NCBI GenBank assembly: GCA_951406725.2
Contig: OX597816.1
Span: 116,560,001-116,624,000, forward strand
Reading direction: 5' to 3'
DNA: 64,000 bases
Source of the DNA: Octopus vulgaris
Taxonomy: Eukaryota
A program made the position numbers and the translations under genes. Under the pieces are notes generated by a model. That model was not told the DNA's origin and did not search any database. It saw only the letters and a program-made list of their open reading frames with translations. This document shows positions 2,524 through 5,180 of the stretch, in pieces. Each line of letters starts with the position of its first letter. Positions within the stretch are counted from its first letter, which is position 1.

Positions 2524-2525
<2 letters not shown>
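2337..2525. repeat. (TA)n-flanked repeat module, probably Penelope-like-element derived
   Basis: Bounded by (TA)n; its end GTTTTGCGTTCTTGTCCCA recurs in reverse complement at ~12965-13030 (GGGACAAGAACGTAAAAC), also next to (TA)n. Confidence 0.5.
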
Positions 2526-2594
<69 letters not shown>

Positions 2595-2598
<4 letters not shown>

Positions 2599-3328
2599 GT
2601 AAAATTGATTAATTAATCAATTTTACCTTTTGGATTGTGTTTTGGCAACTAGTTGCTAAACCCTTAATTATTGTTATAATTATATATAAAACTTCTTGTA
2701 TAAGTTTTTACCTAATATGGTTCCTTTCTATACCGAAAGTACTTGGTGAAATTTATTAATTATAAATTAATAATTTTTTACCTTATATCTATAATAATTA
2801 TTTTACTCCCTGATAACAAGAAAAGCTACGGATCTATTTTCTGCAGTACTGTCTCGTGACCCACATGGCGTAGAAATTGGTGGCAAATATGAATTTCACT
2901 CGTCTATATAAATTTGGATATGCTAACTACCTTGTGTGATGTTCTGATGTATGCAAAGGGTAAGTTTTCTAGCATTTTTTAAATTTATAACTATCGGAAT
3001 ATTATGTTGATAAGGAAATGGAGTTTTATAACACTAATCTAGAAACGCGTCCATAATTGACCGAAGACTGTTTGATTTCACTATTTTCCTTCTTTTTTGC
3101 CTGTGTGAGTTACAGAGAGGGTTATCTGTGGAGTCATATTTTGTAGCGAAAAGAAATAACGGTCTTTTGGCTGCTATTTCTAAATTTTTCGGTATGTGGT
3201 TAAGCAACTCGTTGCTAAGCCCTTAACTATTGTTATAATTATATATAAAACTTCTTGTATAAATTTTTACCGGAACTACTTGGTGAAATTTATTAATTAT
3301 AAATTAATATTTTTTTATAATATATCTA

Positions 3329-3330
<2 letters not shown>
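2595..3330 (+). mobile_element. Penelope-like pseudo-LTR module: 5' palindrome plus partial tandem repeat
   Basis: Perfect 30-bp palindrome 2598-2627; ~130-145-bp direct repeat ~2646-2790 vs ~3203-3330; hammerhead motif at 3001-3057; (TA)n on both sides. Confidence 0.65.
3001..3057 (+). ncRNA. Minimal type-I hammerhead ribozyme, U3-A8 core variant
   Basis: ATTATG-TTGATAA-(imperfect stem II)-GAAA-CGCG-TC^CATAAT; stem I ATTATG/CATAAT; palindromic stem III ACGCGT. Confidence 0.65.
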
Positions 3331-3364
<34 letters not shown>

Positions 3365-3369
<5 letters not shown>

Positions 3370-3705
3370 TGCAGCGTGAAGGTGTTTGTAAACCATTTAA
3401 GAAACACACAAAAGCCGTTCGATTTATTTCAACATTTAAGTTTAATTTGTCAAAATATTTTCGTCGCTAAAATCCGCGACCTGTTCACTGACAAAAATCC
3501 GTGATGCAGCACGGATTTTTGTCAGTGAACAGGACGCGGATTTTAGCGACGAAAATATTTTGACAAATTAAACTTAAATGTTGAAGTGAATCGAACGGCT
3601 TTTGTGTGCTTCTTAAACGGCTTACAAACACCTTCCACGCTGCAATTGTTTTCGTTCCAGCACACGATCTCAGATCAAATCACTTGCTATGCGAGTACAT
3701 CTCCG

Positions 3706-3707
<2 letters not shown>
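3365..3707. repeat. Fold-back module: ~140-bp inverted arms (3365-3503/3510-3649), 6-nt spacer, right arm extended to 3707
   Basis: Arms are near-perfect reverse complements around TCCGTG-ATGCAG-CACGGA; (TA)n on both sides. Confidence 0.92.
3518..3567 (+). ncRNA. Hammerhead-like motif, G3-C8 core variant (mirror copy 3446-3495 on minus)
   Basis: TTTGTCA-GTGAACA-GG(A/T)CGC GGATTTTA GCGAC-GAAA-ATATTT^TGACAAA; 7-bp stem I; palindromic AAAATATTTT stem III. Confidence 0.6.
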
Positions 3708-3747
<40 letters not shown>

Positions 3748-3959
3748 CAATAATAATTCTCTAAATGTGATATAGACAGTAACTGCTCCATAACATAAGG
3801 GACTAAAGCCATCTGAATATGGCTAGGGACAGGGCAGGGTGGTGGGGGTGTTACTGTTGCATTTAGCCCCAGGCGAACATCGACGTCGCCAGATAGGCTT
3901 GACACCATCACGGTGTCCTTTATCCTGCAAAGGGAGATAATTCCCCGATGAAGCGGAAA

Positions 3960-4009
3960 CCACACACGGACCTAGGTTTCAAGGTGTATTGCCTATCATC
4001 AACGTGTGG
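3960..4009 (-). ncRNA. Minimal type-I hammerhead ribozyme (U3-G8), minus copy
   Basis: Reverse complement of 4511-4560. Confidence 0.75.
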
Positions 4010-4510
4010 TAGGCCCCCGCTTCCTCGACGAAATCTCACTCTGCAGGATATTTATATATAGATTTTCAAGCAAAATACATTTGCTGATTTCGAAAATCTG
4101 TTCGACAGCAATAATAATTCTCTAAATGAGATATAGACAGTAACTCCTCCATAACATAAGGGACTAAAGCCATCTGAATATGGCTAGGGACAGGGCAGGA
4201 TGGTGGGGGTGTTACTGTTGCATTTAGCCCCAGGCGAACATCGACGTCGCCAGATAGGCTTGACACCATCACAGTGTCCTTTATCCTGCAAAGGGAGATA
4301 ATTCCCCGATGAAGCGGAAACCACACACGGACCTAGGTTTCAAGGTGTATTGCCTATCCCTTATGTTATGGAGCAGTTACTGTCTATATCTCATTTAGAG
4401 AATTATTATTGCTGTCGAACAGATTTTCGAAATCAGCAAATGTATTTTGCTTGAAAATCTATATATAAATATCCTGCAGAGTGAGATTTCGTCGAGGAAG
4501 CGGGGGCCTA

Positions 4511-4560
4511 CCACACGTTGATGATAGGCAATACACCTTGAAACCTAGGTCCGTGTGTGG
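4511..4560 (+). ncRNA. Minimal type-I hammerhead ribozyme (U3-G8), predicted cleavage after 4551
   Basis: CACACG-TTGATGA-TAGG CAATACA CCTT-GAAA-C CTAG G-TC^CGTGTG; stem I CACACG/CGTGTG; palindromic ACCTAGGT stem III. Confidence 0.75.
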
Positions 4561-4722
4561 TTTCCGCTTCATCGGGGAATTATCTCCCTTTGCAGGATAA
4601 AGGACACCGTGATGGTGTCAAGCCTATCTGGCGACGTCGATGTTCGCCTGGGGCTAAATGCAACAGTAACACCCCCACCACCCTGCCCTGTCCCTAGCCA
4701 TATTCAGATGGCTTTAGTCCCT

Positions 4723-4782
<60 letters not shown>

Positions 4783-4783
4783 T

Positions 4784-5129
4784 GAGTGGCTGTGAGGTAA
4801 GAAGCTTTCTTCCCAACCACATAGTTCCGGGTTCACTCCCACTGCGTGGAACCTTTGGCAAGTGTCATTTGATAGACGGAAACTGAAAGAAGCCCATCGT
4901 GTATATGTGTGTGTGTGTATTTGTGCGTGTGTCTGTGTTTGTCCCCCAACCATCGCATAACAACCGATGTTGGTGTGTTTACTTCCCCATAACTTAACGG
5001 TTCGGCAAAAGAGAGTGATGAAAAAGTACTAGTCTTACAAAGAATAAGTCCTGGGGTCGATTTATTCGACTAAAGGCGGTGTCCCAGCATGGCCACAGTC
5101 TAATGATTGAAACAAGTAAAAGAATAAAA

Positions 5130-5134
<5 letters not shown>
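4784..5134 (+). mobile_element. tRNA/CORE-type SINE family B
   Basis: A-box TGGCTGTGAGGTAAG, B-box GGTTCACTCCC, CCTTTGGCAAGTGTC core, internal (TG)n, tail CAGCATGGCCACAGTC..GAAACAAGTAAAAG; more copies at 18530, 34806(-), 40884(-), 46533, 48713, 62818. Confidence 0.85.

Positions 5135-5180
<46 letters not shown>

What the first reader, a model, noticed from the sequence alone, without database searches (positions are those of the whole stretch)
3001..4560. Three unrelated hammerheads within 1.6 kb, each with a different non-canonical 3-8 pair
Seen: cores read UUGAUAA (3007-3013), GUGAACA (3525-3531) and UUGAUGA (4518-4524) instead of CUGANGA. Each has a correct stem I, GAAA and a palindromic mini stem III. 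Known: C3 and G8 form a Watson-Crick tertiary pair in the active hammerhead, and compensatory swaps can rescue activity. U3-A8 and G3-C8 are exactly such double changes and U3-G8 is a wobble. Inference: covariation argues for selected, probably attenuated, ribozymes rather than decay. Standard CUGANGA searches would miss all three.
Basis: partly seen in the sequence, partly recalled or inferred. Interest (0 to 1): 0.8.

Follow-up and report, generated by a model that had tools for sequence, protein, structure and literature searches.

The report
Penelope hammerheads with swapped core pairs
Three hammerhead-ribozyme motifs from three separate repeat families of the Penelope jumping-gene type lie side by side, likely because all three insert into TA repeats; each family has swapped the same core base pair, all four Watson-Crick versions of that pair occur in this genome, and the RNAs are predicted to cut themselves only slowly, if at all.

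Summary
Confirmed and extended. The odd cores are family states, not decay: U3-A8 in 22 of 22 copies, G3-C8 in 93 of 100 listed (6,477 matches), U3 in 100 of 100 listed with G8 (58) or A8 (42). All three show Penelope-like (PLE) anatomy: head-to-head arms and two fixed 3' ends. The G3-C8 motif is the 3' end of a coding RT + GIY-YIG element; the other two look non-coding and retrozyme-like. A fourth coding family has A3-U8 (98 of 100 listed). All 13 multi-copy families sampled keep 3 and 8 paired. U3-A8 is published and U3-G8 stands in a published alignment; I found no natural G3-C8 or A3-U8 in print, but three key papers were not held. Copies are made mostly from uncut RNA, which fits slow cleavage but does not show selection for it. 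The scan noted a U-A core and an unsettled G-C core in other genomes. Verdict: new variant of a known kind; cleavage untested.

The parts
2596..3333 (+). Element E1: partial tandem of a unit of about 550 bp with a short inverted 5' arm, between (TA)n arrays; no coding frame found; older family (copies 86-95% like this one)
3001..3057 (+). HH1: minimal type I hammerhead, U3-A8 core at 3007-3013, stem III palindrome ACGCGU, predicted cut after 3051; extra A before G12; stem II of this copy partly decayed
3365..3708 (.). Element E2: two head-to-head arms (3365-3506 minus, 3507-3708 plus with a tail of about 58 nt); 3' terminal piece of a coding PLE
3518..3567 (+). HH2: G3-C8 core at 3525-3531, unpaired G after A9, palindrome AAUAUU, predicted cut after 3560; private mismatch at 3534
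3446..3495 (-).
3746..4727 (.). Element E3: 361-bp unit, 1.7 units on minus (3746-4358) joined head to head with one unit on plus (4357-4727); non-coding, retrozyme-like; young family
4512..4557 (+). HH3: U3-G8 core at 4518-4524, U-U at the base of stem II, palindrome ACCUAGGU, predicted cut after 4551
3963..4008 (-).
4324..4358 (-). 5'-truncated third HH3 copy at the inversion junction
2524..4779 (.). (TA)n arrays flanking the three insertions (2524-2595, 3316-3365, 3708-3746, 4723-4779): the inferred shared target

Best explanation
These are minimal type I hammerhead motifs carried by three separate Penelope-type retroelement families whose 3-8 pair has been swapped as a family state; they likely cluster because each is inserted into (TA)n by a PLE reverse transcriptase/GIY-YIG protein, and they are predicted to be slow ribozymes that need a second copy or the element's protein to cut. 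Steps: (1) shown: position 3 and 8 stay paired across families (C-G, U-A, G-C, A-U, U-G) while the other core bases and a palindromic stem III are kept. (2) From the literature: the pair positions G8 for catalysis and a G:C swap partly rescues, also in a PLE hammerhead. (3) Shown: arms end at two fixed 3' sites and join head to head; inferred: two priming events at two internal RNA sites, as in the Anolis PLE. (4) Shown: copies run across the predicted cut site, so the template is mostly uncut or re-joined RNA. (5) Inferred: occasional cleavage of tandem or read-through precursors is enough to keep the fold under selection, so any pairing at 3-8 is tolerated.
For: Family fixation: U3 in 100 of 100 listed, purine at 8 in 100 of 100; G3-C8 93 of 100 listed; 0 of 11 listed C3 copies have G8; 22 of 22; A3-U8 98 of 100 listed; no other letter at 3525 or 3530 in four runs. 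Pairing across families: 13 of 13 multi-copy families, permutation P about 1e-4, 4 of 120 if collapsed to five states; 12 of 13 hits in a 1 Mb even sample paired. A double change keeps the HH3 palindrome (CCUAGG 62, CCAUGG 6 of 71 copies). PLE anatomy: against PMC8557442 and PMC11167929. Coding parent of E2: 530-aa open frame with an RT motif and C-terminal GIY-YIG 1.1 kb upstream. Uncut template: 31 of 49 E2 arms picked by their 3' part hold the whole motif, 2 of 49 start at the cut site; E3 arms of up to 854 nt cross it.
Against: No cleavage was measured. In PMC11167929 hammerhead mutants did not affect insertion in vitro and no RNA reads began or ended at the cut site; 8 of 9 Xenopus dimer elements did not cleave (10.64898/2026.07.22.740005); in PMC9901934 only the G:C swap rescued, so U-A, A-U and U-G may be nearly dead. 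The HH2 palindrome is very weak (-0.2 kcal/mol). Families are not independent and the loci were not random. No coding parent was found for E1 or E3.
Confidence: 0.6

Rival explanations
1. Selected attenuation: slower cores are favoured because uncut RNA is the template, so lineages gain by leaving C3-G8.
For: Templates are mostly uncut. Other weakening changes recur: U4C in 4 multi-copy families, U-U at the base of stem II, very weak palindromes. The commonest short family sampled and the family with many 781-aa open frames are both non-canonical.
Against: C3-G8 families persist: 6 of 13 hits in the even sample and 6 of 13 families. U3-G8 and U3-A8 sister subfamilies both spread recently (1.9% and 2.4% within). 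Tolerance explains the same counts.
Confidence: 0.2
2. The motifs no longer cut; the hammerhead fold is kept as a structural or protein-binding signal, or is a recent fossil carried along in successful master copies.
For: PMC11167929, the 2026 preprint, PMC9901934; no pile of 5' ends at the cut site; PMC8557442 suggests hammerheads may simply parasitize PLEs.
Against: G12, A13, A14, A9, G5, A6 and H17 are kept along with the pair, although my descriptor demanded them; the 3-8 pair forms in the active fold; palindrome covariation within a young family.
Confidence: 0.17
3. Chance look-alikes or single decayed copies of canonical hammerheads.
For: No Rfam hit; the window's HH1 and plus-strand HH2 carry private stem II damage.
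Against: Shuffles give 0.025 hits; variants are fixed in tens to thousands of copies; position behind a PLE frame is the known one.
Confidence: 0.03

Closest known systems
Minimal hammerheads of Penelope-like elements (Cervera and De la Pena 2014, PMC4209133; read: main text parts 1-2 of 4, supplement parts 1-2 of 3)
   Same: Type I, tiny palindromic stem III, unpaired base after A9, place in the terminal repeat, pairs on opposite strands 100-700 bp apart; U3-A8 reported in Schistosoma (about 1,300 hits); a U3-G8 core stands in Fig. S3 (Saccoglossus row).
   Different: G3-C8 and A3-U8 appear in none of the 56 rows of Fig. S3; here they are family states, and four Watson-Crick pairs plus the wobble occur in one genome.
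Poseidon PLE of Anolis (PAc) (Frangieh et al. 2024, PMC11167929; read: parts 1-2 of 4)
   Same: Two internal reverse-transcription starts give the tail; AT-rich targets; uncut RNA is the main template; C3G/G8C partly rescues the ribozyme.
   Different: There G3-C8 is an engineered rescue; here it is natural. Tails here are about 44, 58 and 110 nt rather than 30-40.
Non-LTR retrozymes (PMC7229834, passages; preprint 10.64898/2026.07.22.740005, parts 1-3 of 5)
   Same: Short non-coding tandem units with one type I hammerhead each, likely moved by PLEs (E3 361 bp, E1 about 550 bp).
   Different: E1 and E3 carry minimal, non-canonical motifs and PLE-style inverted arms with fixed 3' ends; circular RNA not shown.
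Natural core variants (Perreault et al. 2011, PMC3088659; passages)
   Same: U3-A8 covariation and U10.1-U11.1 described in nature.
   Different: The passages read name no natural G3-C8 or A3-U8; its Figs S6-S7 and Dataset S1 were not read.

Membership tests
Type I hammerhead ribozyme | Core U4 G5 A6, A9, G12 A13 A14, A15.1-U16.1, H17, closed by stem I | tested here: met
   all five motifs
Type I hammerhead ribozyme | C at 3 and G at 8 | tested here: not met
   U-A, G-C, U-G; no Rfam hit
Type I hammerhead ribozyme | Positions 3 and 8 able to pair | tested here: met
   13 of 13 multi-copy families
Type I hammerhead ribozyme | G10.1-C11.1 closing stem II | tested here: inconclusive
   met in HH2; HH1 has an extra A before G12; HH3 has U-U, a tolerated natural variant per PMC3088659
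Type I hammerhead ribozyme | Self-cleavage 3' of H17 | not testable with these tools
   no assay; only contigs were offered
PLE minimal hammerhead | Short palindromic stem III suited to dimers | tested here: met
   exact palindromes; covariation in E3
PLE minimal hammerhead | Dimer formation | tested here: inconclusive
   co-folding did not give the hammerhead dimer; duplex energies -7.5, -0.2, -11.4 kcal/mol
Penelope-like element | One frame with RT and GIY-YIG upstream of the hammerhead-bearing repeat (E2) | tested here: met
   L372:6978-8567, 530 aa, GIY-YIG over the Pfam cut-off, RT motif seen in the translation and by likeness to L156; no RVT_1 Pfam hit; 5' end missing
Penelope-like element | RT and GIY-YIG frame linked to E1 or E3 | tested here: not met
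   90 loci of 3 kb gave 3 loci with PLE-protein pieces; none was shown to be linked; a parent elsewhere is not excluded
Penelope-like element | Partial tandem, inverted 5' arm, tail at one end | tested here: met
Penelope-like element | Insertion into microsatellite | tested here: met
   most arms end in (TA)n
Non-LTR retrozyme | Non-coding tandem unit with one type I hammerhead per unit (E3, E1) | tested here: met
   361 bp and about 550 bp units
Non-LTR retrozyme | Canonical hammerhead, efficient cleavage, circular RNA | not testable with these tools
   core is non-canonical; RNA not examined

The most novel reading that the evidence does not exclude
In this animal lineage PLE hammerheads have explored the whole pairing space at 3-8 (C-G, U-A, G-C, A-U, U-G) in successful, partly still coding families, because selection favours a throttled, protein-gated ribozyme; CUGANGA-based surveys then miss up to half of PLE hammerheads in such genomes, and some PLE clades reported to lack hammerheads may hide swapped cores.
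Probability: 0.3. Interest if true: 0.72.

Novelty: new variant of a known kind. Interest (0 to 1): 0.5.

Why it matters
The role of hammerheads in PLEs is called unclear in PMC8557442. This genome offers a natural allelic series at the one tertiary pair of the core, with cognate proteins (U-A, A-U and G-C families have coding frames) and a young U-G versus U-A sister pair, so the question of whether cleavage matters becomes directly testable. Natural, family-fixed G3-C8 and A3-U8 would extend the known core consensus, and descriptors should use any pair at 3-8: 6 of 12 paired hits in an even 1 Mb sample were non-canonical (two of them weak).

Tried and rejected
Rfam: no hammerhead; its weak miRNA hits reflect the E2 hairpin. 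Two HH3 copies 10 kb apart on C30 were a segmental duplication, not a full element. An apparent fixed difference between the two E2 arms came from my query; 1 of 100 listed copies has it. An HH1-like motif behind the GIY-YIG frame of L151 is a separate insertion after that element's own 3' end; the HH3 copy near the frame in L155 has the motif upstream of the frame, and no link was shown. The first E3 tree lost most A8 copies to a filter and was redone; it has no outgroup, so the direction between A8 and G8 is open. Co-folding was uninformative on dimers. Expression: no RNA holder listed; the contigs laid cannot show ends or strand. The homolog search of the L156 protein gave unnamed RT + GIY-YIG relatives at up to 58% and no clade name. 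Papers not held: Lunse et al. (PMC5785218), Arkhipova et al. 2017 (PMC5850863), Przybilski and Hammann 2007 (PMC1986816). No earlier scan notes on this genome or this sequence.

Full report
Observation. The three cores are at the stated places. A descriptor with free positions 3, 7 and 8 found 5 motifs in the window: plus strand at 3007, 3525 and 4518, minus strand at 3488 and 4002; 40 shuffles gave a mean of 0.025. Rfam found no hammerhead. The window lies in a 2.8 Gb assembly; an animal, probably a mollusc, is my inference from recall and no call names it.

Context. Each motif sits in its own insertion between (TA)n arrays. E1 (2596-3333) is a partial tandem of about 550 bp. E2 (3365-3708) is two head-to-head arms. 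E3 (3746-4727) is a 361-bp unit in partial tandem plus an inverted unit. In other copies the arms end at two fixed sites downstream of the predicted cut: about +179 and +223 for E3, +90 and +148 for E2, +196 and about +305 for E1, mostly against (TA)n. Partial tandems, inverted 5' arms, a tail at one end and microsatellite targets are the PLE signature (PMC8557442, passages); in the Anolis element the tail equals the gap between two internal reverse-transcription starts (PMC11167929, parts 1-2). Three motif-bearing inserts in 1.6 kb would be very rare at the sampled density (Poisson 1.5e-6, for a window that was picked for the cluster), and TA arrays are denser here (2.0 against 0.68 per kb); a shared target is the inferred cause.

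Family states. HH1: 22 of 22 pattern matches read UUGAUAA. HH2: 6,477 matches, 93 of 100 listed G3-C8; 178 matches lack G3, and none of the 11 C3 copies among the 100 listed has G8; contigs of four runs, coded as four organisms, list no other letter at 3525 or 3530 at 5%. HH3: 255 matches, U3 in 100 of 100 listed, G8 in 58 and A8 in 42 (counted by hand). On 73 of 75 distinct HH3 copies (2 dropped as too short or running into TA), with positions 7-8 masked, there are two clusters 8.6% apart: 56 copies (54 G8, 2 A8; 1.9% within) and 16 copies (all A8; 2.4% within), plus one outlier. Both spread recently. A double change keeps the stem III palindrome in 6 of 71 copies; 3 break it.

Parents. [quoted passage not shown] So E2 is the 3' end of a coding PLE. 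For E1 and E3, 90 loci gave no linked frame (3 loci had PLE-protein pieces, none shown to be linked); they resemble non-LTR retrozymes (PMC7229834 passages; preprint 10.64898/2026.07.22.740005 parts 1-3). A GIY-YIG search gave 148 scored matches, many in 781-aa open frames; that family has RT and GIY-YIG, a U3-A8 hammerhead and a (TA)n end.

Beyond the window. One hundred evenly placed 10-kb stretches gave 13 strict hits: C-G 6, G-C 3, U-A 2, U-G 1, A-C 1; four shuffles gave 4 hits in all, one a G-U. Over all loci then held (1.79 Mb with overlaps, not random), 175 distinct hits fell into 13 multi-copy families and 13 singletons; all 13 families are paired (C-G 6, U-A 4, U-G/U-A 1, G-C 1, A-U 1), and 11 of 13 singletons (5 mismatched HH2 copies there had been fetched on purpose). 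Permutation gives about 1e-4, or 4 of 120 if related families are collapsed to five states. The A3-U8 family has 182 matches, 98 of 100 listed, behind a GIY-YIG frame 56% identical to the U3-A8 family's.

Mechanism. Of 49 E2 arms from 29 loci picked by their 3' part, 31 reach at least 40 nt upstream of the cut site, 6 end within the motif, 2 start at the site and 10 start downstream. E3 arms cross the site and reach 854 nt. The template is therefore mostly uncut or re-joined RNA, as in the Anolis element, where hammerhead mutants did not impair insertion, the ribozyme needed the protein, and C3G/G8C partly rescued it. For E2, I infer priming 90 or 148 nt behind the motif and run-off at a fixed RNA 5' end about 57 nt before the cut. 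I commit to slow, dimer- or protein-dependent ribozymes that process a minority of precursors, with 3-8 free to be any pair (0.6). Selected attenuation (0.2) and a non-cutting fold (0.17) stay open: only the G:C swap rescued in a full double-mutant scan (PMC9901934 passages), and 8 of 9 tested dimer elements did not cleave in the preprint.

Novelty. U3-A8 is in print for nature (PMC3088659 passages) and for PLEs (PMC4209133); a U3-G8 row stands in that paper's Fig. S3, and PMC7151607 (one passage) cites a U3/G8 core with an insertion. Ten searches showed G3-C8 only as an engineered mutant and no A3-U8. Three papers most likely to bear on this were not held, and the supplements of PMC3088659, PMC8557442 and the preprint were not read, so the claim of novelty is limited. 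PMC6765202 and PMC6257768 were seen as passages only. Earlier scan notes from other genomes report a U-A core and an unsettled G-C-like core with an insertion; I take them as leads only.

Verdict. Real motifs, known class, family-fixed swaps; G3-C8 and A3-U8 in coding PLE lineages and the full set of pairs in one genome are the new part. New variant of a known kind, interest 0.5.

Noticed in passing
G000:C4:866865-868581 (L145) and L287-L306: A fourth family with an A3-U8 core: 182 exact matches, 98 of 100 listed; a GIY-YIG frame piece lies upstream on the same strand in 10 of 20 loci (two are one place); 56% identical to the U3-A8 family protein of L156.
   Followed up: yes
L156:1744-4086 and 3' end near 5170: A 781-aa RT + GIY-YIG PLE with many open-frame copies, a CxxxxCxxC linker (Neptune-like per PMC8557442), an upstream 359-aa frame without Pfam hit, a U3-A8 hammerhead and a (TA)n end.
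   Followed up: partly
L077:1728-1760, L337-L366; window 3507: Short E2 copies start at AG|ATG just behind a branch-point/pyrimidine/AG tract that 526 longer copies keep; 10 of 16 short copies have G where long copies have C. Could be a copied cap at a start site, a splice junction, or microhomology.
   Followed up: partly
L025, L159, L165, L217 and others: U4C cores (CCGAYGA) in 4 multi-copy families, one beside a PLE frame.
   Followed up: no
L039/L040: One insertion of the U3-G8 subfamily has A8 in both arms, a possible return to a Watson-Crick pair in its template.
   Followed up: no
window about 1300-2260 +: Looks like a broken mariner-type transposase remnant (by eye, family recalled).
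   Followed up: no
window about 4780-5130: Looks like a tRNA-derived SINE next to E3 (by eye, recalled).
   Followed up: no
L132, L151, L155, L166: The stretch 110-200 nt downstream of the E1 cut site matches other loci at 73-87%, suggesting related families or a shared priming signal.
   Followed up: no
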